From: Eledone cirrhosa
Lineage: Eukaryota
DNA: 64,000 nucleotides
NCBI GenBank assembly: GCA_964016885.1
Contig: OZ024747.1
Location: 90,892,001-90,956,000 of the forward strand
Direction of reading: 5' to 3'
The notes below the pieces were generated by a model. That model saw only the letters and a list, made by a program, of their open reading frames with translations, made no database searches and was not told the origin of the DNA. The position numbers and the translations under genes are program-made. Numbering within the stretch: the first letter of the stretch is position 1; each line of letters starts with the position of its first letter. This document shows, in pieces, positions 3,803-41,852 of this stretch.

Positions 3803-4342
3803 ACAAAAAAAGAACTGGAACAAATAAAACACGGCATTAAATCACAACTCCTTTCTCTCTCTTTCACTCCCTCACTCTCGCTAACTCTCGCGCACTCTCG
3901 CTGGCTCTCATTCATTCACGCTCTCTTTACTCTCTCTCTCTTTCTCTGTCTGTCACTCTCTCTCTCTTATCTTATTTTTATTTTATCAGCTAAATTATGA
4001 TCTGTTGCAAAAGTTGATTCAATGAATTAGTGGAAATTCACACAGCTTGTGAATTGTGTCTGTGTGTTCGTCCCTTCTAATACATCTTCTGCCCAAATGT
4101 GGTCGATGGAGATGCAATGAAGCATGTTAATAGAGTATATAAGTATGTACAAATAAAAAACAATATTTTATTTGTAAAACAAAATAAGAATTACCAGTAA
4201 AGATAAAGCAGACGATAAATAAATAAAGGGATAGATAATCACGTTGTTTTTTTTAGATCCCAAATAAGACACATATCAGTCAATAACAAACAGTTATCTA
4301 AGATGCAGTACAACGTGTATATATATAATATATATATATATA

Positions 4343-4812: not shown

Positions 4813-4973
4813 ATACATATAAATACATATCTATATATATCTATCTATATATATATATATATATATGTACGACCAATCTCTCTTCCTCTCTCTTTATACA
4901 CGCACACATTTGAAATATATACATACATTATATAACATATATACATAGAATGAATTAATAGCCTGGCGCTCTC

Positions 4974-6308
4974 AACCACCACCACCACCACCACCACCAT
5001 CACAATACACCACCACCACCACCACCACCATCACAATACACCACCACCTCCATCACAATACACCACCACCACCACCAACAACACCACCATCACAATACAC
5101 CACCACTACCACCACCAGCACAATACACCACCACCACCACCATCAAAATACACCACCACCACCACCATCACAATACACCACCACCACCACCACCACCACC
5201 ATCAAAATACACCACCACCACCACCATCACAATACACCACCACCACCACCACCACCACCATCACAATACACCACCACCACCACGACCACCACCTCTATCA
5301 CAATACAGCACCACCACCACCAACACCACCACCAACACCACCACCATCACAATACACCACCACCACCACCACCATCACAATACACCACCACCACCACGAC
5401 CACCACCTCTATCACAATACAGCACCACCACCATCAACACCACCACCAACACCACCACCACCACCACCTCTATCACAATACACCACCACCACCACCACCA
5501 CCATCACAATACACCACCACCACCACCACCACCACCACCATCACAATACACCACCACCAACACCACCACCACCACCACCTCTATCACAATACACCACCAC
5601 CACCACCACCACCATCACAATACACCACCACCACCACGACCACCACCTCTATCACAATACACCGCCACCACCACCACCACCACCACCACCACCACCTCCA
5701 TCACAATACACCACCACCACCACCACCACCACCACCTCTATCACAATACACCACCACCACCACCACCACCACCTCCATCACAATACACCAGCACCAGCAC
5801 CACCACCTCCATCACAATACACCACACCACCACCACCACCTCCATCACAATACACCACACCACCACCACCACCTCCATCACAATACACCACCACCACCAC
5901 CACCAGCACCACCACCACCTCCATCACAATACACCACACCACCACCACCACCTCCATCACAATACACCACCACCACCAGCACCAGCACCACCACCACCAC
6001 CTCCATCACAATACACCACACAACCACCACCACCTCCATCACAATACACCACCGCCACCACCACCAGCACCACCACCACCACCTCCATCACAATACACCA
6101 CCACCACCACCACCACCACCACCTCTATCACAATACACCACCACCACCACCACTACCACCTCCATCACAATACACCACCACCACCACCTTCACCACCACC
6201 ACCTCCATCACAATACACCACCACCACCACCAGCACCACCACCACCACCACCTCCATCACAATATACCAGCACCACCACCACCACCTCCATCACAATACA
6301 CCACACCT
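4974..6308 (+). repeat. Compound minisatellite [ATCACAATAC(ACC)n]
   Basis: ATCACAATAC anchor separated by variable-length ACC runs. Confidence 0.95.
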
Positions 6309-6530
6309 CAAATGAGTGAATAAATATATTGGTTTGGTTTGAATAAAAAAATGTAAAGAAAAAAGCCCATAATAGATAAAAGATGAAGAGTAAGGACAAC
6401 AACAACAACAACAAAAGACAATAACAAAAACACGAACAATAACTAACAAATTTATTAATATTATAATGATAAGTATTAATTGCCATAGCTGAATATTATA
6501 TAAGTCTTGTGAACTAGCTTGGTATTACTG

Positions 6531-9694
<3,164 letters not shown>

Positions 9695-10408
9695 CGTACA
9701 TGTATGCACATGTGTAGCAAGTGAAAGAGAGAGAGGGGGGAGAGGGAGAGAGAGCAGATTGGAGAATGAAAGAAAGGAAATAGGGTGGGGGGTGGGGGGG
9801 AGATAGAGGAAGAGAGAGAAGAGGGTAGAAAGAATAAAAGAAAAAGAAAAAAAAAAGAGGACGAGGTACAGAGAGAGGAAAATAAATAAATTCATACATT
9901 TTTTTAGTGAGATATTTTATTGAATCCAGCATCCTCAATAAAACACACATCAATACACAATAACAGTATATCTCATGTTTTACACACACACAGTCATCAC
10001 TGCATCGTATATGTTTGTAACACTACTATATTACACTATTTGTTTTAATGTTGTGTCTGGATATTAATAACCAACTATACATGCTTTTGCACAGTACCGT
10101 CGTCTAAGTCTCTACATAAAATACTCTTCGCTTATTGGTTATAGCGATACCACTTAATTTTCATTTCTGATGCTTTTCTCCACCCCGCTCATCGAAAAAA
10201 GAAGAAAAAAGAAAAATGAAGAAAAAGTCATGCATGTGAATGTTGCACGCAATACAGACTCATATCACTCCACCAGTAAATTCGTTATATATATAAATAG
10301 AGTGTGTCCCATAAAAATTGTATACATACTTTGAATAGGATGTTGATGAAGTGTGTATACATTTTTTGGGGACATCCTGTACACACATACACACACACAC
10401 ACATATAT

Positions 10409-12699: not shown

Positions 12700-15112
12700 G
12701 TGGAGTGTATCTCGAGACAGATGTAAAGTCTACCTTGATAACTACCTTGAGATATATGTAATGAACTCATCTTGATATCAACTTATGTTCCCTGTGATTA
12801 ACTAGATAACTGCAAGTGAGAACTGTGATAATGACCATGAGAGAAGTGTGGTTTCATTTGTATTGATAACTTGTGCAGAGACATATAATATCCGTATTAA
12901 TGCCATGTCTATCGAGATGACTATTTGAGAATATTGTGATGTCTATCTTCAGAATAAGGTAATGTCTATCCTGATAACTACTACAGCGAGATATAACGTC
13001 TACCTTGATAGCTATAGTGAAATGTGGTGTCTACCTTGATAACTGCAGTGAAATGTGGTGTCTACCTTGATAACTACAGTGAAATGTGGTGTCTACCTTG
13101 ATAACTGCAGTGAAATGTGGTGTCTACCTTGAAATTATAGTGAAATGTAGTGTCTACCCTTGATAACTATAGAGAAATGTGTTGTCTACCTTGATAACTA
13201 CAGTGAAATGTGGTGTCTACCTTGATAACTATAGTGAAATGTAGTGTCTACCTTGATAACTATACAGAAATGTAGTGTCTACCTTGATAACTATAGTGAA
13301 ATGTGGTGTCTACCTTGATAACTATAGTGAAATGTAGTGTCTACCTTGATAACTATAGAGAAATGTAGTGTCTACCTTGATAACTATAGAGAAATGTAGT
13401 GTCTAACTTGATAACTATAGAGAAATGTGGTGTCTACCTTGATAACTATTCAGAAATGTGGTGTCTACCTTGATAACTATAGTGAAATGTGGTGTCTACC
13501 TTGATAACTATAGTGAAATGTAGTGTCTACCTTGATAACTATAGAGAAATGTAGTGTCTACCTTGATAACTATAGAGAAATGTAGTGTCTACTTTGATAA
13601 CTATAGTGAAATGTGGTGTCTACCTTGATAACTATAGTGAAATGTAGTGTCTACCTTTTTAACTATAGTGAAATGTAGTGTCTACTTTGATAACTATAGT
13701 GAAATGTGGTGTCTACCTTGATAACTATAGAGAAATGTGGTGTCTACCTTGATAACTATAGTGAAATGTGGTGTCTACCTTGATAACTATAGAGAAATGT
13801 GGTGTCTACCTTGATAACTATAGAGAAATGTGGCGTCTACCTTGATAACTATAGAGAAATGTGGTGTCTACCTTGATAAATATAGTGAAATGTGGTGTCT
13901 ACCTTGATAACTATAGAGAAATGTGGTGTCTACCTTGATAACTACAGTGAAATGTGGTGTCTACCTTGATAACTATTCAGAAATGTGGTGTCTACCTTGA
14001 TAACTATAGTGAAATGTGGTGTCTACCTTGATAACTATAGTGAAATGTGGTGTCTACCTTGATAACTATTCAGAAATGTGGTGTCTACCTTGATAACTAT
14101 AGAGAAATGTGGTGTCTACCTTGATAACTATAGTGAAATGTGATGTCTACCTTGATAACTATAGTGAAATGTAGTGTCTACCTTGATAACTATAGTGAAA
14201 TGTAGTGTCTACTTTGATAACTATAGTGAAATGTGGTGTCTACCTTGATAACTATAGTGAAATGTAGTGTCTAACTTGATAACTACAGTGAAATGTGGTG
14301 TCTACCTTGATAACTATTCAGAAATGTAGTTCTACCTTGATAACTATAGTGAAATGTGGTGTCTACCTTGATAACTATAGTGAAATGTAGTGTCTACCTT
14401 GTTAACTATAGTGAAATGTAGTGTCTACTTTGATAACTATAGTGAAATGTGGTGTCTACCTTGATAACTATAGAGAAATGTGGTGTCTACCTTGATAACT
14501 ATAGTGAAATGTGGTGTCTACCTTGATAACTATAGAGAAATGTGGTGTCTACCTTGATAACTATAGAGAAATGTGGCGTCTACCTTGATAACTATAGAGA
14601 AATGTGGTGTCTACCTTGATAACTATAGTGAAATGTGGTGTCTACCTTGATAACTATAGAGAAATGTGGTGTCTACCTTGATAACTACAGTGAAATGTGG
14701 TGTCTACCTTGATAACTATAGTGAAATGTGGTGTCTACCTTGATAACTATAATGAAATGTGGTGTCTACCTTGATAACTATTCAGAAATGTGGTGTCTAC
14801 CTTGATAACTATAGAGAAATGTGGTGTCTACCTTGATAACTATAGTGAAATGTGGTGTCTACCTTGATAACTATAGTGAAATGTGGTGTCTACCTTGATA
14901 ACTATTCAGAAATGTGGTGTCTACCTTGATAACTATAGTGAAATGTAGTGTCTACCTTGATAACTACAGTGAAATGTGGTGTCTACCTTGATAACTATAG
15001 AGAAATGTGGTGTCTACCTTGATAACTATAGTGAAATGTGGTGTCTACCTTGATAACTATAGAGAAATGTGCTGTCTACCTTGATAAATATAGTAAAATC
15101 TGATGTCTACCT
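12700..15112 (+). repeat. 31-bp tandem satellite (TGTCTACCTTGATAACTATAGTGAAATGTGG), about 68 homogeneous units plus degenerate left units
   Basis: Period 31 (e.g. 13021 vs 13052); homogeneous from ~13000 to 15110. Confidence 0.97.
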
Positions 15113-15442
15113 TTGTCTTGAGTTCCACTGGATTTTATTTAAAATTAAAACAAAATATGAATCTTAGAGTGACGGACAAAATCTTTTTCAGTAATTTAGT
15201 AAAACCCTGAGATCAAAACTTGCCGTGATTATCTTTGCTTCTCATCTTTCCAAGGTCGATAGAAAAGTACCAGTCAAGTACTGGAGTCGATACAATTGAC
15301 TTCACCTCATCCTTAATTGTGGGGCCTTGTAACCACGTTAGAATTAATTAGATTGAATTCTGGCATAGTTTTTTACTAATTATTTTTCATGCAGCAAGCG
15401 GCGGTTGTTGTTTGCCCCAGTCACTCTTGCAAGATATAGATA

Positions 15443-28291: not shown

Positions 28292-30743
28292 TACTCTTTT
28301 ACTCTTTTACCTGTTTCAGCCATCCGGCTGAGGCCATGCTGGGGCACCGCCCTTGTTGCTACACATTTTATCTCCAGCCTGTATAGGTTGGTCACTTGTG
28401 TAAGAGGGAGTTTGTTGCTGCTGCCCTTAGGTTTCCCTCGTGCCTTGCTGTGGGCTCATCCGGGATCATGGATAGCAAGGTGTCGAGATGTTTCTTGAAG
28501 ACATCCACCTCCACGTCATGCAATTCTCTCAGATCCCTCGGCAGCTTGTTGAAGAGTTGAGGGCCCTTGAATCCCAGGCTATTGCAATACCTGCTCCTTA
28601 TTCTAGATGTGGAAGACGGGACCTTTGGCACCACACAGTGACGTCCTGTTCGACGGTTGGTCCAGCTCCCAATGCCAAAGTTTGGTGCTAGTCTCTCCAG
28701 GATTTTCCACATGTAGATCACTGCGTATCTCTCCCGTCTTAGTTCCACGGAATAGAGGTTCAGTTCCTTTAGCCTCTCCCAGCAGCTTGTCTCCTTCATC
28801 GTGGCAATCCTCTTGGTGTAGCTTCGCTGGATTGCCTCAACTCCGTGGTTAGTTTGACACTATGGGGTGACCACAACTGGGAGCAGTAGTCCAGGCGGCT
28901 TAGGACAAATGTCCTCCATAGTGTCAACATGGTGTCTCGGTCTCTTGTCCGGAAAGTCCTCAAGTTCCAGCCAGCGAGTCGTCTGCACATTGTCGCCACT
29001 TTCATGATGTGTGAGGAAAAATATGCATCATCGCTCATGTCTATGCCCAGGTCTCGTATCGATTTTGACACGGGGATATCGGTCCCTCCTGGTCCAGTGT
29101 AGTTGTGTTGTACTATATTTGTGTTTGCAGGCTTGTTTGCAGGTTTGTATTGTAGGGCTTGGAATTTGCCAGCATTAAACTGCATGCTGTTTTCTTCCGC
29201 CCGTTTGTATATGGCATCCAGATCTTGTTGTAAAAGGGCAGCGTCAGCCGGGTTTTTGATTGCCTGTGCTACCTTAGTGTCATCAGCATAGCTAGTGAGG
29301 GATGTTGTTGTATGTAGTACAGAGGGCATGAGTGAGAGAGCCACCAATAACAGTAGTGGTCCCAGGTCTGTCCCCTGGGGCACCCAACTTGTTATTGGTG
29401 TTTCCTTTGAGTCATGCAGCCACTCACCTACTTTTCCAGTTATGCCGAGTCCGTGTAGTTTGTCACATATCATTCCGTGGTCGACCTTGTCAAAGGCCTT
29501 CGCAAAGTCAAGATATATCACGTCCACATGTAAGCTGTCTAGTAGTTGTTTCAGTACCCAGTCGTAGTGATGTAGCAGCTGTGTAAGGCAGCTTCTTCCT
29601 GGGCGGAAGCCATGTTGCGTGCTAGTCAGGCGGTCATTTTCCTCGAGGAAAGTGATCAGTTTCATTCTGACGACTCGCTCCATGACCTTACTGATATGCG
29701 ACATCAGGGAGACTGGCCTATAGTTTTTGGCCTCCGCTCTTCTACCTCCTTTATGGATAGGGCATATTGTGCCTTCTTTCAGCTCCCTGGGTAGTAAACC
29801 GCTAGCCAAGGAGCTTCTGAAGAGCATCTTCAGTGGAGTTGCTAAGGCCCGCTTACATGTTTTTAAGAGAACTGCTGGGAATCCATCAGGTCCAGCAACT
29901 GAGTCTGTTCTAATTTAATCTATGGCGTACACCACATCCTCCTCCGTTATGTTCATGTAGTGTTGTGGCATCAAAGAACTCCTCTGGCTTCGTTATTTGC
30001 ATGTGCCTCAGTGGACATGTGAACACACTTTTGTACTGTTCGTTCAGTATTTCACATATCTCTTGGGGGTTTTAGGTTAATGAACCGTCCGTATGGAAGA
30101 GTGGCCCAATCTTGCAGTGTACCGAGGCAGTTTCTTTTGCAAATTTAAAGAAGGCCTTAGGGTTTGTTTTAATGTTTTCTATGGCCCTGTTCTCTTTCTT
30201 TGCCCTCTCATTTTCATGGGAAAGTTTGAGTGCAATCTCGGTGCCAAGTAGTGCACATTTCAAATAGGATTCCTTCTTGTTTTTGTTTTCTTGTTGACTA
30301 TTCAACTGGTTTGAGAGCTTGGTTCTACGTCTCATAAGGATTTTCCTATCTCTGGGAATAAGATTTTTGTGTCTTTTTGCCTTTTTCTCCGGGACAAACG
30401 TTTTGCATATAGTGTGTATCGTTGTCATGAAGTGTTGAAATTGTGTGTTAGTGTCTTGTGTGGCGGTGTTTTCACTCCATGTTTGCTTCCGGATTTCTCT
30501 GTTAATCTTTTTCCAGTTAGCCTTGTAGAAGTTAAGGCTGGATAACGCCCTGGAGCTTCTTGATGGTTTTGTTTCTGTTGGTTCTCTCGGACCACATATC
30601 ATTAGCTCTACTAAGTTATGATCCGAGAGAATTGTTGGTGTCACCTTTACATTGTGGATGAGCACTTCGTTGTTTGTAAAACAGAGGTCCAGGAGATTTT
30701 TGCCTCTTGTTGGGAGGAGTATTGCTTGCTCCATGAACAGCCT
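28292..30743 (-). mobile_element. 5'-truncated CR1-group LINE (EN remnant + RT, frameshifted)
   Basis: PTRGKNLLDLCFTN...SDH; NYRPVSL, QHGFR, YLDFAKAFD, VPQG, YADD, DLGI; 3' tail (AAAAGAGT)n; several frameshifts. Confidence 0.9.
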
Positions 30744-31127
30744 GGCATTGGGAGCTGGACCAACCGTCGAACAGGACGTCACTGTGTGGTGCCAAAGGTC
30801 CCGTCTTCCACATCTAGAATAAGGAGCAGGTATTGCAATAGCCTGGGATTCAAGGGCCCTCAACTCTTCAACAGGCTGCCGAGGGATCTGAGAGATTTGC
30901 ATAACGTGGAGGTGGATGTCTTCAAGAAACATCTCGACAACTTGTTATCCAGGATCCCGGATGAGCCAACAGCAAGACACGAGGAAAACCTAAGGGCAGC
31001 AGCAACAAACTCCCTCTTACACCAGTGGCCAACCTATGCAGGCTGGAGATAAAATGTGTAGCAACAAGGGCGGTGCTCCAGCATGGCCTCAGCCGGATGG
31101 CTGAAACAGGTAAAAGAGTAAAAGAGT
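30744..31127 (+). mobile_element. Inverted 3'-end copy of the same CR1-group LINE
   Basis: Reverse complement of 28292-28678 with scattered substitutions; ends AAACAGGTAAAAGAGTAAAAGAGT then (TA)n. Confidence 0.9.
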
Positions 31128-31157
31128 AATATATATATATATATGTATATATATATA

Positions 31158-31204
<47 letters not shown>

Positions 31205-31205
31205 G

Positions 31206-31266
<61 letters not shown>

Positions 31267-31299
31267 ATATATATTATATATATATATATATATGTATAT

Positions 31300-31637
31300 A
31301 CATTCATTTCATTTCATTTTATTTTACGTCCGCTTCTCCCTGCTTGCAAGGGTGGGACGGGAACTGATTCTGGCTTGATTTCTACAGCTGGATGCCCTTC
31401 CTAACACCAACCTCATTTACAGTGAGTGCTGGGTGCTTTTTTGCCGTGGTACCTCCATGACCACTTTACAGTGGAATGATAGGGACCCCAGTCCCTATCA
31501 TCTCATTTCTACAGCTGAGTAAACTGGAGCAATATGAAATAAAGTATCTTGCTCAAGGAAACAACACATCACCCGGTCTCAGAATTGAACTCACAACCTT
31601 TCAATTGCAAGCCCAATGCTCTAACCACTAAGCCATG
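31300..31637 (-). mobile_element. SINE B-related element, duplicated at 42010-42350
   Basis: tRNA head on - (31575-31637); near-identical to 42010-42346. Confidence 0.75.
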
Positions 31638-31710: not shown

Positions 31711-31752
<42 letters not shown>

Positions 31753-31753
<1 letters not shown>

Positions 31754-31822
31754 AAAGTTATATTTAAATTGTTGGGTTACAACTAGTAAATATTTATAAC
31801 TGATATAAAAGCACTCGACAAG
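31753..31822 (-). mobile_element. Naiad 5'-UTR/pLTR tail fragment
   Basis: Matches 36474-36542. Confidence 0.8.
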
Positions 31823-32330
31823 CATCCTGCAGGACTAAAAACAAAACCTGTCAAAGGACAAAGGAGCTCGTAAGAGTCAATGGCCATCCAAAATCACCGG
31901 GAGAGATGACCCCTTAGCCTTTGTCAAGGCAGAATTCTTGGAGAAGGAAAACTCTGATATAACACCTGTAACCCTGATGGTATCCAATGATGTTGACTCG
32001 TTCTTCTTTTTGGTAAATATCATCTTGGTTAAGAGAGTGGGACTGGCTTTGTGCAGTGCCTTTGCTCACTATAAAAGCTTCACGGCACAGGCATTGCTTT
32101 ATATCTGGAGATCTCTCTGCACTTGTCGTCACATGGTACCATGGGCCCAGCACTGTGTGTCAATAATTGTCACAAGTGTAGTGTTTGTACTAGAGTTTTC
32201 AAGTCGCTGGCTGTACTAAAAAGTCACACTCGTTCAGCACATCGGTAGGGGTTCTCCTACATGGATATAAAGTAGTGGCCGTACTCGAAAACGAGTTGGC
32301 AGCCACCATATATATATATATGTGTGTGCA

Positions 32331-32452
<122 letters not shown>

Positions 32453-32555
32453 TTAAGTAAGTAAGCTAGTTACTATGATTTTCTTATTTTACGTTTTTCA
32501 TATATATATATATATATACATGTACACACACACACATATATATATATATATGTAT

Positions 32556-32600
<45 letters not shown>

Positions 32601-32638
32601 ATTAAATAAATGGAAAACTATATTTATAAAACCATATT

Positions 32639-32704
32639 TATTTCATTATATATATTTCGGGGATATCATATTAACAATATGCTATGCCTTCATCAGACAA
32701 AATA
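32639..32704 (-). ncRNA. Naiad pLTR hammerhead ribozyme (3' pLTR of copy 1)
   Basis: Reverse complement of 41564-41629. Confidence 0.8.
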
Positions 32705-33067
32705 CAATATAAACAGTTTTATAGATAAATATATTCGACATACCGTAATAAACATCAACTTCATTTGAAGAGGTTCACTCTAGCAGTGAAAATACAGAGA
32801 GAAAGAAAGAGAGAGAGAAAAGAGGGAAATAAGAAAGAAAGAAAGACGAAACGAAGAAAAGGAAGAAAAAGAAGAAAAAGAAGAAATGCATGGGACAAAA
32901 TAGAGAGATGGAAAAATAGATAAAGCGAAGAGCTTCATGTAAAGAGACCGAAAGAGATATATATATATATAGAGAGAGAGGAAATAGAGATAGATACATA
33001 TATAAATATAGATATAGAAAAATTAGGTAGTGGGAGGTCATTTTGAGTAAGTGTATCAATGATGCAT

Positions 33068-33102
<35 letters not shown>

Positions 33103-34209
33103 GCTCAAGTATTAATGTAAGGGAGATATAGAGAGATATAGAGAGATATAGAGAGAGAAAAATTTAAAAATAGCCAGACATATTCGAGGCGTAGAAAACC
33201 CTATGTTTTAATGTATTAGTATTTATAAAACTTACACTATATTGTAAATATCAGTATTCCTGAATGAAACAAGTATTCACAATGCGTGAAAATTCATTAT
33301 CTTATGTTTAGTTTTTTAAAAAATTCATATGTCTATGTGAATCCAACTGATTCACTCCGCAAATTCAAAGTTACCGGAAAACATTCTCAATGTGGTATAA
33401 ACATTTGAGCGTATTATTATTCTTGCGATTACTCTACAAGATTATCTATCAAGCAGAAATAGAGAGCAGATTTCAATATACTAATCGAAAATATATATTA
33501 TATTATAAGCAGAGATAACAATAATAATGATAATAAGTAAAAATATATAAAAATATAAAAATATAGAATAGAAAACTAAAAAAGAATATTACGAAAGAAT
33601 ATTACATAATAAAAATATTGCATATTAAAAATACTATGTTTTAAAATTATTACGTATTAAAACTTTACATATAAAAATATTAAAAATAAAAATAAAATAA
33701 AATAAAAAATAAAAAATAAAAATATAAAAATATTATAGAATACTACAATACTAAAAGAATAAAAATAAAAATAAAAATAAAAATAAAAATAAAAAATAAA
33801 AAATAAAAATAAAAAATAAACCACAAAGAACAACCCTTCAAGGTTAATTGACAATATATTGCCAAGTTCACTACAAGACAAAGCCAAAAATTATCTATCA
33901 AATCACATCTAGCAAGGAATATCGCAAAAAAAAAAAAAAGGTTATGATGTCCAATAATGTCTACATATGTTCCTATATTTAATATATAAGTTTATCAAGT
34001 GTAAGGTTAATTCATAAAATTTGGAGCATCGGCTTTTAGGGTAGCTTAATTTTTCATGAGGAATGTTTAGATAAAAATAAAAATAAAAATAAAAAATAAA
34101 AATAAAAATAAATACAATAAAATAAACAGTAAAAAGAGGGAATCAAAGATTTAGGAATCAAAAGATTTATCGGCTAGTTCTCATATAAATATAAATCAAA
34201 CTAAATATA

Positions 34210-36423
34210 CTACATTTTAAATTTAAATTTATATTTAAACGTTGAGTTTAATCTATGTTTGCAACAACTGAATAAATTTGTCCGTAGGTTAAGGGAATTT
34301 TTAGATTTTAGTATAAAGAATATCTCCTCTGCGCAGAGGTCACATGTCTCAGAGGATGAATTAAAAGGAATCCCTCTTGAGACTATATTCCAAGCCGTCG
34401 AATATCTAACGTTATCTAGCTTAAGTTGCCAGAGTACACCTGATAGTGCCGTTGAAGATTTTTTATTTGGATCTGTGAAAGAATTCTTGTGGTTATTATA
34501 GCGAAGTTTAAATTCCGTCGATGTGGAACCGACGTAGTTAAAAGAATTAGAGTCAGTATTAACATTACAATTGTATACTATATTTTTAACTAAGCAGTTG
34601 TTATTTAACGGACATTTAGATCTATCTCTACAGTTGCATTTGTTAACTTGTATATTATTTATGCTATTATCAGTAGTTTTTAAGTTCCTATTATTTATTC
34701 TATTAATATTTTGTGCTAAATTTTTGGTGGATGAATAGGTTAATTTAATTGTATGCCTATTGAAGATTGAGTGGTACCTATGTGTTCTAGGGAAGCGATT
34801 ATCAAGAGCTTTGAAAAATAATTTAGCGATGTGGGTTTTAATGTTTAGTGAGAAAGGGGGGGCAAACCAAATTATGTTCCTAGTTCTATTTCTTTTTTGT
34901 CCTTTGGAATTATTGTAATGCTTTCTATTATAGTTGTTAATGTTGTTGCCATAATTAAAAAAGTTGTTACTTTGTTTAGTTTGTTTATCATTATCTATGT
35001 ACACAATCTTATCAGCATACCCTGCCCTAGCTAGTGCATCATTATAGTATTGGGCCTTTTCGTCAAAAATCTTTCTATTCGACGAGATCCTAGAGATACG
35101 CTTTTGGACTGAGTTTACTATAGTGTTTTTGACAGATCTGGGGTGGTTAGAGTTAAAGTTGACATAGTTTAAGTTTTCATTCAACTTGTGAAAAGGATAG
35201 TGGAGACATGTGTTGAGATTTAATGTTATATCTAGGAAATTGACTATTCTATGGTTGTTCTCAATTTCTATTTTAAGGTTAAAGTAATTAAAAAATTTTG
35301 TAATTTGTTTACATTTTCTATTTAGTTCAGGGTTATTATTATTAATGAGTAAAAGCATGTCATCCCTATATAAACCTCCGGTAGTACCAGGTATTTTCCT
35401 ATGTAGCGAATTGATTAAAAATAAGCCCACAAGGTCAGTTACTTGAGCTGAGTCGGAAGATCCCATAGTTATGTCAAAATTGCTATCTCTATCTGCTCTG
35501 GTCCATAATTTGTCATCAAATTCTATCAAAGTTTTCCTAGCCGATAATATAATATGCATTTCTTTGCTAGTTAGGTCCGTATGTTTGAATGCGTAATTTA
35601 GTGCCTTATTTAGTAGACTAGGGGTAATAGAAGAATAATAGTTAGCTATATCAAGTTGAATAAACCTATTATTATTGTCATATTTAATTTGCCTAAACCA
35701 CTCAACAACCTCTCCGGTTCCCTTCCACAAGCTCAGGTTAGATACATAATCCAAGTTCTTAATTTGCAGTATCACCCTGTCAAGAATGTTTTTGCTTAAT
35801 TTGCCCAGGTCCGATTTTGAAGGTGCGATTAATCTAACTGGCAGGTCAATCTCAAAATTCCTCTTGTGGTCCTTCATATTGATCTTCGGTTTCCTGGGCA
35901 CAAAAGGTTGTGTTCTGTTCTCAATTTCCAACTCATGCATTATACAAGATGCTTCAACATTCATTTTCACAAGTTCGGTCTTATCTGCTACCTTGTATTT
36001 TTTCCTCAGCTCTTTCAGTATGAGGCCATTATACATGTCTTTCTGCACTCCATAGAGGTTGTTGGTCTTGTCAGATTTCACCAAGATCTTCTCAGTTTTC
36101 TCTAAGCTCTCAATGTTATCCTTAATGCCTTTCAGATATTCCTGGCCTTTAAAGTTTCTCTTGAATTTGACCCCTTGTATGATAGAAATTATATCGTTTT
36201 CAAAGTCAGATAAAAGTTTGTTAGGGGGTGGATTTCTTTTAGATTTGAAAACTTTGTTTAAGTCCGAGATATTTTCGTCTGCATTAAATTTATCAAAGTG
36301 GAATGCACGCCACCTGATTCTCCTTATAAAAGAGTCAGATTTATCTATTAGTTGTTTTACAAAGTCTTTGTTTCTAGGTAGAGGTATGTCTTTTAGAGAG
36401 GAAGTAATCTTAAAGAATTCCAT
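34210..36423 (-). CDS. PLE polyprotein: reverse transcriptase + GIY-YIG endonuclease (Naiad-like), 737 aa, intact
   Basis: SLKDIP...FIRRIRWRAF N-terminus; KDHK, RLIAP, LDIANYYSSI, TMGS.DSAQV, GLYRDD, NFLDITL; CNC-x4-CPL...CL; NIVYNC...YVGST..FKLRYNNH; CDLC..E...N. Confidence 0.93.
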   Translation of the reverse strand: MEFFKITSSLKDIPLPRNKDFVKQLIDKSDSFIRRIRWRAFHFDKFNADENISDLNKVFKSKRNPPPNKLLSDFENDIISIIQGVKFKRNFKGQEYLKGIKDNIESLEKTEKILVKSDKTNNLYGVQKDMYNGLILKELRKKYKVADKTELVKMNVEASCIMHELEIENRTQPFVPRKPKINMKDHKRNFEIDLPVRLIAPSKSDLGKLSKNILDRVILQIKNLDYVSNLSLWKGTGEVVEWFRQIKYDNNNRFIQLDIANYYSSITPSLLNKALNYAFKHTDLTSKEMHIILSARKTLIEFDDKLWTRADRDSNFDITMGSSDSAQVTDLVGLFLINSLHRKIPGTTGGLYRDDMLLLINNNNPELNRKCKQITKFFNYFNLKIEIENNHRIVNFLDITLNLNTCLHYPFHKLNENLNYVNFNSNHPRSVKNTIVNSVQKRISRISSNRKIFDEKAQYYNDALARAGYADKIVYIDNDKQTKQSNNFFNYGNNINNYNRKHYNNSKGQKRNRTRNIIWFAPPFSLNIKTHIAKLFFKALDNRFPRTHRYHSIFNRHTIKLTYSSTKNLAQNINRINNRNLKTTDNSINNIQVNKCNCRDRSKCPLNNNCLVKNIVYNCNVNTDSNSFNYVGSTSTEFKLRYNNHKNSFTDPNKKSSTALSGVLWQLKLDNVRYSTAWNIVSRGIPFNSSSETCDLCAEEIFFILKSKNSLNLRTNLFSCCKHRLNSTFKYKFKFKM

Positions 36424-36602
36424 TTTTCAGTTATAATATAAAGCGCTCAACAGTATTGGAGCAAGATACATGTAAAGTTATATTTAAAATTGTTGGGTTA
36501 CAACTAGTAAATATTTATAACTGATATAAAAGCACTCGACAAATACTTGGAGTATATTTACAATATTAAATAAATGGAAAACTATATTTATAAAACCATA
36601 TT

Positions 36603-36668
36603 TATTTCATTATATATATTTCGGGGATATCATATTAACAATATGCTATGCCTTCATCAGACAAAATA
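36603..36668 (-). ncRNA. Naiad pLTR hammerhead ribozyme (5' pLTR, ~180 nt upstream of the ATG)
   Basis: Reverse complement of 41564-41629. Confidence 0.8.
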
Positions 36669-37031
36669 CAATATAAACAGTTTTATAGATAAATATATTC
36701 GACATACCGTAATAAACATCAACTTCATTTGAAGAGGTTCACTCTAGCAGTGAAAATACAGAGAGAAAGAAAGAGAGAGAGAAAAGAGGGAAATAAGAAA
36801 GAAAGAAAGACGAAACGAAGAAAAGGAAGAAAAAGAAGAAAAAGAAGAAATGCATGGGACAAAATAGAGAGATGGAAAAATAGATAAAGCGAAGAGCTTC
36901 ATGTAAAGAGACCGAAAGAGATATATATATATATAGAGAGAGAGGAAATAGAGATAGATACATATATAAATATAGATATAGAAAAATTAGGTAGTGGGAG
37001 GTCATTTTGAGTAAGTGTATCAATGATGCAT

Positions 37032-37066
<35 letters not shown>

Positions 37067-37852
37067 GCTCAAGTATTAATGTAAGGGAGATATAGAGAGA
37101 TATAGAGAGATATAGAGAGAGAAAAATTTAAAAATAGCCAGACATATTCGAGGCGTAGAAAACCCTATGTTTTAATGTATTAGTATTTATAAAACTTACA
37201 CTATATTGTAAATATCAGTATTCCTGAATGAAACAAGTATTCACAATGCGTGAAAATTCATTATCTTATGTTTAGTTTTTTAAAAAATTCATATGTCTAT
37301 GTGAATCCAACTGATTCACTCCGCAAATTCAAAGTTACCGGAAAACATTCTCAATGTGGTATAAACATTTGAGCGTATTATTATTCTTGCGATTACTCTA
37401 CAAGATTATCTATCAAGCAGAAATAGAGAGCAGATTTCAATATACTAATCGAAAATATATATTATATTATAAGCAGAGATAACAATAATAATGATAATAA
37501 GTAAAAATATATAAAAATATAAAAATATAGAATAGAAAACTAAAAAAGAATATTACGAAAGAATATTACATAATAAAAATATTGCATATTAAAAATACTA
37601 TGTTTTAAAATTATTACGATGAAGGCATAGCATATTGTTAATATGATATCCCCGAAATATATATAATGAAATAAATATGGTTTTATAAATATAGTTTTCC
37701 ATTTATTTAATATTGTAAATATACTCCAAGTATTTGTCGAGTGCTTTTATATCAGTTATAAATATTTACTAGTTGTAACCCAACAATTTTAAATATAACT
37801 TTACATGTATCTTGCTCCAATACTGTTGAGCGCTTTATATTATAACTGAAAA

Positions 37853-40068
37853 ATGGAATTCTTTAAGATTACTTCCTCTCTAAAAGACATACCTCTACCT
37901 AGAAACAAAGACTTTGTAAAACAACTAATAGATAAATCTGACTCTTTTATAAGGAGAATCAGGTGGCGTGCATTCCACTTTGATAAATTTAATGCAGACG
38001 AAAATATCTCGGACTTAAACAAAGTTTTCAAATCTAAAAGAAATCCACCCCCTAACAAACTTTTATCTGACTTTGAAAACGATATAATTTCTATCATACA
38101 AGGGGTCAAATTCAAGAGAAACTTTAAAGGCCAGGAATATCTGAAAGGCATTAAGGATAACATTGAGAGCTTAGAGAAAACTGAGAAGATCTTGGTGAAA
38201 TCTGACAAGACCAACAACCTCTATGGAGTGCAGAAAGACATGTATAATGGCCTCATACTGAAAGAGCTGAGGAAAAAATACAAGGTAGCAGATAAGACCG
38301 AACTTGTGAAAATGAATGTTGAAGCATCTTGTATAATGCATGAGTTGGAAATTGAGAACAGAACACAACCTTTTGTGCCCAGGAAACCGAAGATCAATAT
38401 GAAGGACCACAAGAGGAATTTTGAGATTGACCTGCCAGTTAGATTAATCGCACCTTCAAAATCGGACCTGGGCAAATTAAGCAAAAACATTCTTGACAGG
38501 GTGATACTGCAAATTAAGAACTTGGATTATGTATCTAACCTGAGCTTGTGGAAGGGAACCGGAGAGGTTGTTGAGTGGTTTAGGCAAATTAAATATGACA
38601 ATAATAATAGGTTTATTCAACTTGATATAGCTAACTATTATTCTTCTATTACCCCTAGTCTACTAAATAAGGCACTAAATTACGCATTCAAACATACGGA
38701 CCTAACTAGCAAAGAAATGCATATTATATTATCGGCTAGGAAAACTTTGATAGAATTTGATGACAAATTATGGACCAGAGCAGATAGAGATAGCAATTTT
38801 GACATAACTATGGGATCTTCCGACTCAGCTCAAGTAACTGACCTTGTGGGCTTATTTTTAATCAATTCGCTACATAGGAAAATACCTGGTACTACCGGAG
38901 GTTTATATAGGGATGACATGCTTTTACTCATTAATAATAATAACCCTGAACTAAATAGAAAATGTAAACAAATTACAAAATTTTTTAATTACTTTAACCT
39001 TAAAATAGAAATTGAGAACAACCATAGAATAGTCAATTTCCTAGATATAACATTAAATCTCAACACATGTCTCCACTATCCTTTTCACAAGTTGAATGAA
39101 AACTTAAACTATGTCAACTTTAACTCTAACCACCCCAGATCTGTCAAAAACACTATAGTAAACTCAGTCCAAAAGCGTATCTCTAGGATCTCGTCGAATA
39201 GAAAGATTTTTGACGAAAAGGCCCAATACTATAATGATGCACTAGCTAGGGCAGGGTATGCTGATAAGATTGTGTACATAGATAATGATAAACAAACTAA
39301 ACAAAGTAACAACTTTTTTAATTATGGCAACAACATTAACAACTATAATAGAAAGCATTACAATAATTCCAAAGGACAAAAAAGAAATAGAACTAGGAAC
39401 ATAATTTGGTTTGCCCCCCCTTTCTCACTAAACATTAAAACCCACATCGCTAAATTATTTTTCAAAGCTCTTGATAATCGCTTCCCTAGAACACATAGGT
39501 ACCACTCAATCTTCAATAGGCATACAATTAAATTAACCTATTCATCCACCAAAAATTTAGCACAAAATATTAATAGAATAAATAATAGGAACTTAAAAAC
39601 TACTGATAATAGCATAAATAATATACAAGTTAACAAATGCAACTGTAGAGATAGATCTAAATGTCCGTTAAATAACAACTGCTTAGTTAAAAATATAGTA
39701 TACAATTGTAATGTTAATACTGACTCTAATTCTTTTAACTACGTCGGTTCCACATCGACGGAATTTAAACTTCGCTATAATAACCACAAGAATTCTTTCA
39801 CAGATCCAAATAAAAAAAATCTTCAACGGCACTATCAGGTGTACTCTGGCAACTTAAGCTAGATAACGTTAGATATTCGACGGCTTGGAATATAGTCTCA
39901 AGAGGGATTCCTTTTAATTCATCCTCTGAGACATGTGACCTCTGCGCAGAGGAGATATTCTTTATACTAAAATCTAAAAATTCCCTTAACCTACGGACAA
40001 ATTTATTCAGTTGTTGCAAACATAGATTAAACTCAACGTTTAAATATAAATTTAAATTTAAAATGTAG
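37853..40068 (+). pseudogene. PLE RT-GIY-YIG ORF with a +2 frameshift in an A-run
   Basis: Protein identical to copy 1 up to DPNKK; A8 at 39812-39819 vs A6 in copy 1; could be a homopolymer sequencing error. Confidence 0.85.
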
Positions 40069-41165
40069 TATATTTAGTTTGATTTATATTTATATGAGAA
40101 CTAGCCGATAAATCTTTTGATTCCTAAATCTTTGATTCCCTCTTTTTACTGTTTATTTTATTGTATTTATTTTTATTTTTATTTTTTATTTTTATTTTTA
40201 TCTAAACATTCCTCATGAAAAATTAAGCTACCCTAAAAGCCGATGCTCCAAATTTTATGAATTAACCTTACACTTGATAAACTTATATATTAAATATAGG
40301 AACATATGTAGACATTATTGGACATCATAACCTTTTTTTTTTTTTTTTTGCGATATTCCTTGCTAGATGTGATTTGATAGATAATTTTTGGCTTTGTCTT
40401 GTAGTGAACTTGGCAATATATTGTCAATTAACCTTGAAGGGTTGTTCTTTGTGGTTTATTTTTTATTTTTATTTTTTATTTTTATTTTTATTTTTATTTT
40501 TATTTTTATTCTTTTAGTATTGTAGTATTCTATAATATTTTTATATTTTTATTTTTTATTTTTTATTTTATTTTATTTTTATTTTTAATATTTTTATATG
40601 TAAAGTTTTAATACGTAATAATTTTAAAACATAGTATTTTTAATATGCAATATTTTTATTATGTAATATTCTTTCGTAATATTCTTTTTTAGTTTTCTAT
40701 TCTATATTTTTATATTTTTATATATTTTTACTTATTATCATTATTATTGTTATCTCTGCTTATAATATAATATATATTTTCGATTAGTATATTGAAATCT
40801 GCTCTCTATTTCTGCTTGATAGATAATCTTGTAGAGTAATCGCAAGAATAATAATACGCTCAAATGTTTATACCACATTGAGAATGTTTTCCGGTAACTT
40901 TGAATTTGCGGAGTGAATCAGTTGGATTCACATAGACATATGAATTTTTTAAAAAACTAAACATAAGATAATGAATTTTCACGCATTGTGAATACTTGTT
41001 TCATTCAGGAATACTGATATTTACAATATAGTGTAAGTTTTATAAATACTAATACATTAAAACATAGGGTTTTCTACGCCTCGAATATGTCTGGCTATTT
41101 TTAAATTTTTCTCTCTCTATATCTCTCTATATCTCTCTATATCTCCCTTACATTAATACTTGAGC

Positions 41166-41200
<35 letters not shown>

Positions 41201-41563
41201 ATGCATCATTGATACACTTACTCAAAATGACCTCCCACTACCTAATTTTTCTATATCTATATTTATATATGTATCTATCTCTATTTCCTCTCTCTCTATA
41301 TATATATATATCTCTTTCGGTCTCTTTACATGAAGCTCTTCGCTTTATCTATTTTTCCATCTCTCTATTTTGTCCCATGCATTTCTTCTTTTTCTTCTTT
41401 TTCTTCCTTTTCTTCGTTTCGTCTTTCTTTCTTTCTTATTTCCCTCTTTTCTCTCTCTCTTTCTTTCTCTCTGTATTTTCACTGCTAGAGTGAACCTCTT
41501 CAAATGAAGTTGATGTTTATTACGGTATGTCGAATATATTTATCTATAAAACTGTTTATATTG

Positions 41564-41629
41564 TATTTTGTCTGATGAAGGCATAGCATATTGTTAATAT
41601 GATATCCCCGAAATATATATAATGAAATA
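41564..41629 (+). ncRNA. Minimal type I hammerhead ribozyme in the Naiad pLTR
   Basis: UAUUUUGU-CUGAUGA-A-GGcAUAgCAUAUU guu AAUAUGaUAUcCC-C-GAAA-UAUAUA-UA^AUGAAAUA; 8-bp stem I with two GU pairs, palindromic stem III, predicted cut after 41621. Confidence 0.82.
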
Positions 41630-41795
41630 AATATGGTTTTATAAATATAGTTTTCCATTTATTTAATATTGTAAATATACTCCAAGTATTTGTCGAGTAA
41701 GTAAGCTAGTTACTATGATTTTCTTATTTTACGTTTTTCATATATATATATATATATACATGTACACACACACACATATATATATATATATGTAT

Positions 41796-41852
<57 letters not shown>

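What the first reader, a model, noticed from the sequence alone, without database searches (positions are those of the whole stretch)
32456..41833. Young ~9-kb palindrome of two full-ORF Naiad-type PLEs joined inside the ribozyme core
Seen: 37618-41673 is the reverse complement of 32595-36658, and the differences I found are homopolymer or repeat-length changes. The ~960-bp spacer is a pLTR repeat. The inversion junction (37618) shares one G and falls inside CUGAUGA, so copy 2 has no upstream HHR while copy 1 is bracketed by two. Known: PLEs often carry an inverted, truncated pLTR at the 5' end. Unusual here: the inverted arm is an entire ORF-containing unit. Inference: both arms came from one recent event, copy 1 may be an active source element, and read-through transcription would give a ~4-kb dsRNA hairpin.
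Basis: partly seen in the sequence, partly recalled or inferred. Interest (0 to 1): 0.72.

Follow-up and report, generated by a model that had tools for sequence, protein, structure and literature searches.

The report
Two-armed Hydra retrotransposon insertion
This 9-kb DNA palindrome is in the assembled genome as described and is a long example of the head-to-head layout that most insertions of a young Penelope-like jumping gene (Hydra type, not Naiad) show, likely made when both ends of a cut chromosome each copied the same RNA from a different start point.

Summary
The palindrome is in the assembly: the arms (32595-36658, 37618-41673) differ by no substitution and four repeat-length changes. 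Three first-reader points fail. The element is Hydra-type (C-terminal endonuclease, hammerhead), not Naiad. Copy 2 is frameshifted (669 versus 737 aa). The junction inside CUGAUGA is not special (0 of 96 arm starts in an unselected sample). The layout is the family norm: 48 of 63 unselected sites are head-to-head, and 6 of 92 ORF-start sites have ORF starts in both arms, three with two intact ORFs. In 45 of 46 classifiable pairs one arm ends about 52 nt and the other about 145 nt past the predicted ribozyme cut; in 14 of 45 neither arm contains the other, which excludes fold-back copying. Best reading: both ends of the cut target prime reverse transcription on the same RNA species, at two fixed sites. 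Long arms possibly come from a circular RNA. Special here: an atypical right end and a 138-bp target duplication. No read data confirmed the junction. The scan noted two-ended priming before, on short stumps elsewhere in this genome. A new member of a known kind, with good material for testing mechanism.

The parts
32456..32593 (+). Left copy of the 138-bp target-site duplication (end of another repeat family plus TA/CA microsatellite)
   Evidence: exact match to 41696-41833; 48-mer occurs twice genome-wide
32595..37618 (-). Left arm: 1.27 units of the 3964-nt monomer; outer 3' end is the family's short (S) end, 50-52 nt past the predicted ribozyme cut, abutting (TA)n
32595..33654 (-). Downstream pLTR of copy 1
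   Evidence: identical to 36559-37618
32638..32705 (-). Predicted type I hammerhead, cut predicted after 32647; stems I and III weak
   Evidence: motif scan and folding; format as in Hydra table of PMC8557442 supplement; no Rfam hit
34210..36423 (-). Intact ORF, 737 aa: telomerase-like RT, CxCx5C linker, C-terminal GIY-YIG-type endonuclease
36445..36462 (-). Predicted bulged hairpin 2, 4-8 nt beyond the family's long (L) end
36534..36553 (-). Predicted bulged hairpin 1, 6-8 nt beyond the family's short (S) end
   Evidence: fold -4.0 kcal/mol
36602..36669 (-). Upstream predicted hammerhead of copy 1, cut predicted after 36611
36659..37617 (-). 959-bp spacer: the part of copy 1's upstream pLTR that the right arm lacks
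36739..36756 (-). Short palindrome where many short arms of the family begin; candidate transcription start or RT stop
   Evidence: 43 of 96 arm starts within monomer 3815-3845; coordinates
37618..37618 (.). Head-to-head junction, one shared G, inside CTGATGA of the right arm
   Evidence: unique in the assembly
37618..41698 (+). Right arm: 1.03 units, no substitution against the left arm; atypical 3' end 77 nt past the cut
37853..39862 (+). ORF of copy 2, 669 aa, frameshifted inside the endonuclease
39812..39819 (+). A8 run private to copy 2 (six in 34 of 35 readable copies)
41563..41630 (+). Downstream predicted hammerhead of copy 2
41679..41698 (+). Hairpin 1; the right arm ends on its last base, with 3 bases shared with the target
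41696..41833 (+). Right copy of the 138-bp target-site duplication

Best explanation
This is a single, very recent insertion of a Hydra-type Penelope-like retrotransposon whose two head-to-head arms were likely made by two separate target-primed reverse transcriptions, one from each end of the cut chromosome, on the same RNA species. Shown: anatomy, identity of the arms, ORF states, the 138-bp duplication, and the family rule that one arm ends at site S (50-58 nt past the predicted ribozyme cut) and the other at site L (140-145 nt). Inferred: the element's endonuclease cuts both strands at or near (TA)n; each 3' end primes on the RNA through 2-4 shared bases, one at S and one at L; each cDNA runs toward the RNA's 5' side, across the ribozyme site, and stops at a variable point; repair joins the two cDNA ends head to head through little or no microhomology. 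Here both runs exceeded one unit (1.27 and 1.03). The second priming was atypical (77 nt past the cut, 138 bp from the first nick), which would give the long duplication. The frameshift in copy 2 is likely RT slippage in an A-run (or a sequencing error). For arms longer than one unit the template is more likely a circle or a cut RNA that RT jumps around (about 0.55) than an uncut read-through of a tandem source (about 0.45).
For: Family norm: 24 of 30 long loci fetched are head-to-head (30 of the 34 sites); 48 of 63 sites from the first 100 exact ribozyme-core matches on contig C1, with no tail-to-tail pair within 10 kb in that listing. S/L pairing in 45 of 46 classifiable pairs (binomial p 1e-12; S on the left in 23 of 45) and in 21 of the 24 long inverted loci (one called by eye). 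Neither arm contains the other in 14 of 45 pairs, nor here: the right arm has 25 terminal nt that the left end lacks, the left arm 959 nt that the right lacks. Same template: arms of diverged loci are closer to each other than to other loci (C1a 7 of 2679 sites between arms against 41 to this window); both arms share post-ORF T-run lengths at C9 (32/32) and C11 (12/12) while loci range 7-73; both ORFs at C3d stop at 493 aa. Junctions are varied overlaps, blunt joins or short fillers. A PLE protein extends both target strands and starts at two internal RNA sites in vitro, and is predicted to be a dimer (PMC11167929). For a circle or jump: 0 of 36 over-unit arms begin at the site where 43 of 96 arms of the unselected sample begin; the 37 matches to a youngest-subfamily marker show no locus with two whole tandem units; two one-off insertions are built of 195-nt and about 185-nt units that begin 5-25 nt after the predicted cut, repeated in both arms, with S and L ends.
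Against: This locus is one of the exceptions to the S/L rule (right end at 77), so its second priming is inferred from one case. The 138-bp duplication is far longer than the 8-10 bp reported for rotifer PLEs (PMC3846280); among the other 29 long loci the only clear duplication outside microsatellite was 14 bp (C11). In vitro, the two start sites were not strand-specific and uncut RNA was the main substrate (PMC11167929). The ribozyme is only predicted: no Rfam hit, stem I duplex -2.3 and stem III dimer -3.2 kcal/mol. No scar marks the predicted cut (193 of 197 crossings identical, control 193 of 199), which fits uncut RNA as well as a clean circle. At L177 and L178 both 3.6-kb arms begin within 7 nt of each other, as expected of a linear RNA end. 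A tandem source could be missing from this assembly (one arm of C13a runs into a gap). One unselected site is S/S, two have an atypical end, and L146, left out of the count, has two L-ended arms 4 kb apart.
Confidence: 0.8

Rival explanations
1. Assembly artefact: a fold-back chimeric read or misjoin produced the palindrome.
For: Arms have no substitution; the junction is unique. One locus, C2a, looks as a fold-back would: both ends L and 1450 bp of host flank mirrored with 0 mismatches.
Against: Here the flanks are a direct 138-bp repeat, the two outer ends differ, there is a 959-bp non-mirrored spacer, and the arms differ by four indels. The same layout recurs at dozens of loci with different junctions, also at older loci whose arms have diverged from each other.
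Confidence: 0.07
2. Self-priming (snap-back): one cDNA or antisense RNA folds back at a palindrome and copies itself, as proposed for rotifer PLEs.
For: Proposed in PMC3846280 from palindromes at inverted junctions; many short insertions here also have palindromic junctions at monomer 3819-3836; arms share private variants.
Against: A snap-back arm must lie inside the first arm. In 14 of 45 S/L pairs neither arm contains the other, and in several (L091, L109, L124) the arms share no sequence. This window's junction has a 1-nt overlap, no palindrome, and non-nested arms.
Confidence: 0.05
3. One arm inserted first, and a later DNA-level inverted duplication or conversion made the second.
For: Identical arms; the locus lies in an older tandemly duplicated, repeat-rich stretch; the atypical right end and long duplication could be repair scars.
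Against: The right arm's last 25 nt are not at the left arm's end; no host flank is mirrored; a DNA-level event would not give one S and one L end at 45 of 46 sites.
Confidence: 0.05
4. Two independent insertions, the second landing in the pLTR of the first.
For: The family can target its own AT-rich ends (C11 sits in an older copy's end; suggested in PMC11167929); young copies are nearly identical.
Against: One target duplication flanks the whole unit; the junction is not in (TA)n; arms are sisters in diverged loci and share T-run lengths and an inactivating change.
Confidence: 0.03

Closest known systems
Hydra clade of C-terminal-endonuclease PLEs, including Hydra-1_Obim (PMC8557442; section 11 read, supplement part 2 of 59 and search hits seen)
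   Same: RT then endonuclease; RW(R/K), DKT, CxCx5C linker, CxxC and CxH around the conserved E and N, no CCHH, hammerhead in pLTR, (TA)n targets; long stretches agree by eye with Hydra-1_Obim; Penelope-13_HM is listed with an inverted copy at its 5' end.
   Different: Unit is 3964 nt, where listed Hydra families are about 1.1-3.0 kb; tail about 90 nt, where 30-40 bp is typical; at least 32 intact ORF copies; best database relatives only 39-42% identical. Not placed on a tree with the published references.
Insertion unit of EN+ PLEs: partial tandem, inverted 5'-truncated copy, one-sided tail (PMC8557442 passages; PMC3846280 parts 1-4 of 5)
   Same: Head-to-head arrangement, pLTRs, tail at one end, target duplication, junction palindromes in short copies.
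   Different: The inverted copy is longer than one unit; the duplication is 138 bp; the right end lacks the usual tail.
Poseidon_Ac in vitro mechanism (PMC11167929; parts 1-2 of 4 read)
   Same: Two internal RT start sites just downstream of the hammerhead; both DNA strands cut and extended; AT-rich targets.
   Different: There no strand difference in start site was seen and uncut RNA was the main substrate; here genomic insertions pair one site with each end, and priming shows 2-4 shared bases with the target.
L1 twin priming (recalled; PMC2837659 seen in a search listing only)
   Same: Both target ends prime; 5'-to-5' junction with microhomology; target duplication around the whole unit.
   Different: In L1 the arms are non-overlapping parts of one RNA; here both arms start within 90 nt of each other and overlap, up to more than one unit each.
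Naiad PLEs
   Same: pLTRs, inverted copies, (TA)n targets; present in octopus genomes.
   Different: Naiads have an N-terminal endonuclease, DKA and no canonical hammerhead; none of these holds here.

Membership tests
EN+ Penelope-like element | Telomerase-like RT | tested here: met
   Model pLDDT 80.7; top five Foldseek hits are TERT, best E 8e-10. No Pfam family for this protein and no PDB sequence hit.
EN+ Penelope-like element | GIY-YIG endonuclease in the same ORF | tested here: met
   Motif read from the sequence (IVY...YVG...FKLRY..H, later EE and N), conserved in 14 aligned relatives, two strands plus helix in the model. No profile or structure hit was obtained for this domain itself.
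EN+ Penelope-like element | pLTRs, inverted 5' copy, one-sided tail | tested here: met
Hydra clade | Endonuclease C-terminal to RT | tested here: met
Hydra clade | RWK motif and DKT in place of DKG | tested here: met
   RWR here, RWK in 10 of 13 aligned relatives; DKT here; same stretch as Hydra-1_Obim by eye
Hydra clade | CxCx5C linker; CxxC and CxH around conserved E and N; no CCHH | tested here: met
   CNCRDRSKC, CDLC and CKH in P0001; no cysteine pair between the two endonuclease strands (definition)
Hydra clade | Canonical hammerhead in the pLTR | tested here: inconclusive
   Both core halves and three stems can be drawn in the published Hydra format, but stems are weak, the free fold differs, Rfam finds nothing and cleavage was not assayed
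Hydra clade | Insertion into (TA)n | tested here: met
   outer ends abut (TA)n at most loci
Hydra clade | Groups with Hydra references in an RT phylogeny | not tested
   reference proteins were seen only as supplement text, not held as sequences; no tree was built
Naiad | N-terminal endonuclease followed by CxC domain | tested here: not met
   endonuclease is C-terminal
Naiad | DKA motif; no canonical hammerhead | tested here: not met
   DKT; hammerhead cores at three places
Neptune / Nematis / Poseidon | CCHH motif in the endonuclease, CX2-5CxxC linker (or no linker in Poseidon) | tested here: not met
   no CCHH; linker is CxCx5C

The most novel reading that the evidence does not exclude
PLEs integrate by an obligatory two-headed reaction: a dimer primes both ends of a double-strand cut at two different, hairpin-marked RNA sites, and for full-length copies it rolls round a ribozyme-made RNA circle, so every insertion is born as a palindrome and some, like this one, as two whole genes back to back. 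This active Hydra family, with dozens of intact copies, would be the system in which to prove it and to explain the PLE tail, pLTR and inversion in one mechanism.
Probability: 0.45. Interest if true: 0.72.

Novelty: new member of a known kind. Interest (0 to 1): 0.44.

Why it matters
The locus itself is the long tail of a known layout. Its value lies in the family. How PLEs make their inverted copy, pLTRs and one-sided tail is still open: self-priming (PMC3846280), endonuclease resolution (PMC8557442), circular templates (PMC4209133) and two internal start sites on uncut RNA (PMC11167929) have each been proposed. The genomic counts here tie the two start sites to the two ends of one insertion and exclude fold-back copying, and they hint at two templates: a linear RNA for short stumps, a circle for long arms. 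With about 2,850 ribozyme-core matches and at least 32 intact ORFs, the family is a ready test system for the little-studied Hydra clade. Multi-kilobase perfect palindromes made in one step are also likely sources of dsRNA, local instability and assembly errors; none of this was tested. I found no paper that counts this pairing or uses non-nested arms (searches); older subscription papers on PLE structure were not read and may hold the idea.

Tried and rejected
Reads: no RNA holder listed. Laying four runs on the whole locus and four on the junction showed no listed contig across 37618; in X1-X3 the depth at 37605-37614 equals one ordinary contig that continues as the normal element. These are short contigs, hold 0.43-0.58 of the words, may come from other individuals and drop rare paths, so this decides nothing. 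Rfam: 0 hits in the window. Pfam: 0 families for P0001; PDB sequence search with the profile: 0. Enrichment of junctions in the ribozyme core: 0 of 96 unselected arm starts; 2 of 36 over-unit arms (this one and C1c) against 0.23 expected, but the window was chosen after the fact and the sample was drawn with a query starting there, so not accepted; the 36 were compiled by hand and leave out arms whose start BLAST did not resolve (C7b, C4d, C1_43, C1_123, C1_172, C1_230). Arms from two different source elements: apparent arm differences at C4c, C6 and C1d shrank to 0-6 sites once repeats were masked; rejected. Scars at the predicted cut, as a jump model might leave: 4 of 197, no more than control. 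A link between the older tail fragment at 31746-31821 and the missing tail of the right arm: it is diverged (96%) and on the other strand; rejected. Chance match of two copies of a common repeat as the source of the 138-bp duplication: rejected. Earlier notes by protein sequence: none. Of the 63 unselected sites, 15 were not counted as pairs: 13 showed one arm in the stretch fetched, L119 is inverted with its left end unresolved, L146 is ambiguous.
Full report
Observation. Self-comparison of the window shows an inverted repeat of 32595-36658 and 37618-41673 with four repeat-length indels and no substitution. The 959-bp spacer is the part of a pLTR that only the left arm has. Taking the stretch between the two predicted ribozyme cuts of copy 1 (36611, 32647) as the monomer M, 3964 nt, the left arm reads M2957-3964, M1-3964, M1-52 on the minus strand and the right arm M3917-3964, M1-3964, M1-77 on the plus strand. 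They share one G at 37618, inside CTGATGA. The whole is flanked by an exact 138-bp direct repeat; a 48-mer from it is found twice in the genome, at these two places, and a 46-mer reaching ten bases further left once. Copy 1 encodes 737 aa. Copy 2 has eight A where 34 of 35 readable copies have six and stops at 669 aa, inside the endonuclease.

What the element is. The protein folds as a telomerase-like RT followed by a CxCx5C linker and a GIY-YIG-type domain without CCHH; it has RWR and DKT. These are the marks of the Hydra clade in PMC8557442 (section 11), and long stretches agree by eye with Hydra-1_Obim in that paper's supplement. Naiad is excluded by domain order, DKT and the hammerhead. 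The best of 185 database relatives are 39-42% identical; the named ones are from Argonauta hians. I built no tree and did not work out the host species. The hammerhead follows the published Hydra format but is a prediction with weak stems and no Rfam hit.

The family. The assembly holds 2,851 exact matches to a 42-nt ribozyme-core stretch, 106 to the ORF start and 37 to a marker of the youngest subfamily. Of 36 ORF starts in 30 long loci, 32 give 737 aa. This window's sequence is the centre of a star of 13 loci within 0-5 substitutions. So the family is young and probably active, and copy 1 is one of several possible sources.

Is the palindrome unusual? No in kind, yes in length. 24 of 30 long loci are head-to-head. 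In an unselected sample, the first 100 core matches on contig C1 (63 sites), 48 are head-to-head. Six of 92 sites in the 100 listed ORF-start matches have an ORF start in each arm: C9, C11 and C13a with two intact ORFs, this one 737/669, C3a 350/737, C3d 493/493. L177 and L178 add two palindromes with 3.6-kb arms.

The end rule. Outer 3' ends fall at two sites, S (M50-58) and L (M140-145), each sharing 2-4 bases with (TA)n. In the unselected sample 45 pairs are S/L, one S/S and two have an atypical end. This is the one-sided 'tail' of the literature, here about 90 nt, and it matches the two RT start sites found in vitro for a lizard PLE. In 14 of the 45 pairs the S arm reaches further 5' while lacking M59-145, so neither arm can be a copy of the other; that rules out the self-priming model of PMC3846280 for those sites. 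Arms of one locus share a template: they are nearest neighbours in diverged loci and share private variants. Two predicted bulged hairpins lie a few bases beyond S and L, a lead taken from earlier notes of this scan; this window's atypical right end falls on the last base of the first hairpin.

The junction in the ribozyme core. Junctions are varied. None of 96 unselected arm starts lies in the core; 43 lie at M3815-3845, at a short palindrome that may mark the transcription start. Two of 36 over-unit arms begin in the core, a weak and post hoc excess. I treat the position as chance, with a small possibility of RT pausing at the ribozyme.

The template. Both start sites lie just after the predicted cut, so a cut linear monomer cannot give long cDNA; the template is uncut, circular, or crossed by a jump. 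Over-unit arms do not pile up at M3815-3845 (0 of 36), reach 1.8 units, and the youngest subfamily has no locus with two whole tandem units in the assembly. Two single loci consist of 195-nt and about 185-nt units from just after the cut, repeated up to four times and in both arms. This favours a circle, as proposed in PMC4209133 (passages). Against it: uncut RNA was the main substrate in vitro; the cut site shows no scar; both arms at L177 and L178 stop together; a source may be absent from this assembly. About 0.55 to 0.45.

Artefact check. C2a shows what a fold-back looks like: both ends L and 1450 bp of mirrored flank. This window has different ends, a spacer and direct flanks. The read sets on offer could not test the junction.

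Literature seen. PMC3846280 parts 1-4 of 5; PMC8557442 passages, section 11, supplement part 2 of 59 and search hits; PMC11167929 parts 1-2 of 4 (supplement not seen; its Fig. S1-S2 may bear on strand pairing); PMC4209133, PMC13282606 and bioRxiv 10.64898/2026.07.22.740005 passages only. L1 twin priming is recalled.

Verdict. In the assembly as described, very recent, Hydra-type, one intact and one frameshifted ORF; a long member of a known insertion layout. The mechanism read from the family is the interesting part, and this scan has reached the two-ended reading before on short stumps. Interest 0.44.

Noticed in passing
window 43896-47857: A second, older head-to-head PLE insertion of another clade: RT and C-terminal GIY-YIG with a cysteine linker of Neptune type (by eye) on the minus strand, broken by a stop at 45736-45738, with an inverted arm of about 1 kb.
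   Followed up: partly
L175 (G000:C22:9579760-9581070) and L176 (G000:C2:346280820-346281350): One-off insertions made of 195-nt (M9-203) and about 185-nt (M21-209) units without ribozyme, repeated in both arms with S and L ends; they suggest that this short stretch is enough for insertion and that RT can go round a small template.
   Followed up: partly
L039-L040 (G000:C2:273641279-273648767): Only long locus with two L ends; 1450 bp of host flank is mirrored without mismatch: a fold-back misassembly or a real inverted duplication.
   Followed up: partly
L043-L045 (G000:C7:78451182-78464452): Tandem of 3.3 units, all identical in 3038 compared sites, three intact ORFs, no inverted arm seen; 13 substitutions from this window.
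   Followed up: partly
window 32448-32500, 42677-42730, 42916-42968, 43543-43590: The target is the end of another repeat family that looks like the 3' half of a Hydra-format hammerhead followed by (TA)n; the right junction lies next to its apparent cut site. One copy pair at 42677-42968 is itself inverted.
   Followed up: no
window 31129-31637 and 41836-42346; 32307-32596 and 42543-42828: An older tandem duplication surrounds the insertion (9 substitutions in 337 bp of its non-microsatellite part).
   Followed up: partly
window 31746-31821: Older L-type tail fragment of the same family (M69-145, 96%) on the minus strand beside (TA)n, with no partner arm found.
   Followed up: partly
window 51799-54945 and 28796-30944: LINE-type open frames with AP endonuclease and RT (1048 aa open frame; a second, broken copy).
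   Followed up: no
window 4949-6323, 6500-9700, 12900-15113, 58740-61330: Tandem arrays and minisatellites, including about 52-bp and 62-bp units and a diverged array with inverted blocks.
   Followed up: no
family-wide, A/T run after the ORF (window 33927-33940): The run length varies from 7 to 73 between loci but is equal in both arms at C9 and C11 and differs at this locus (14, 17), C13a and C3a: a possible marker of template identity and RT slippage.
   Followed up: partly
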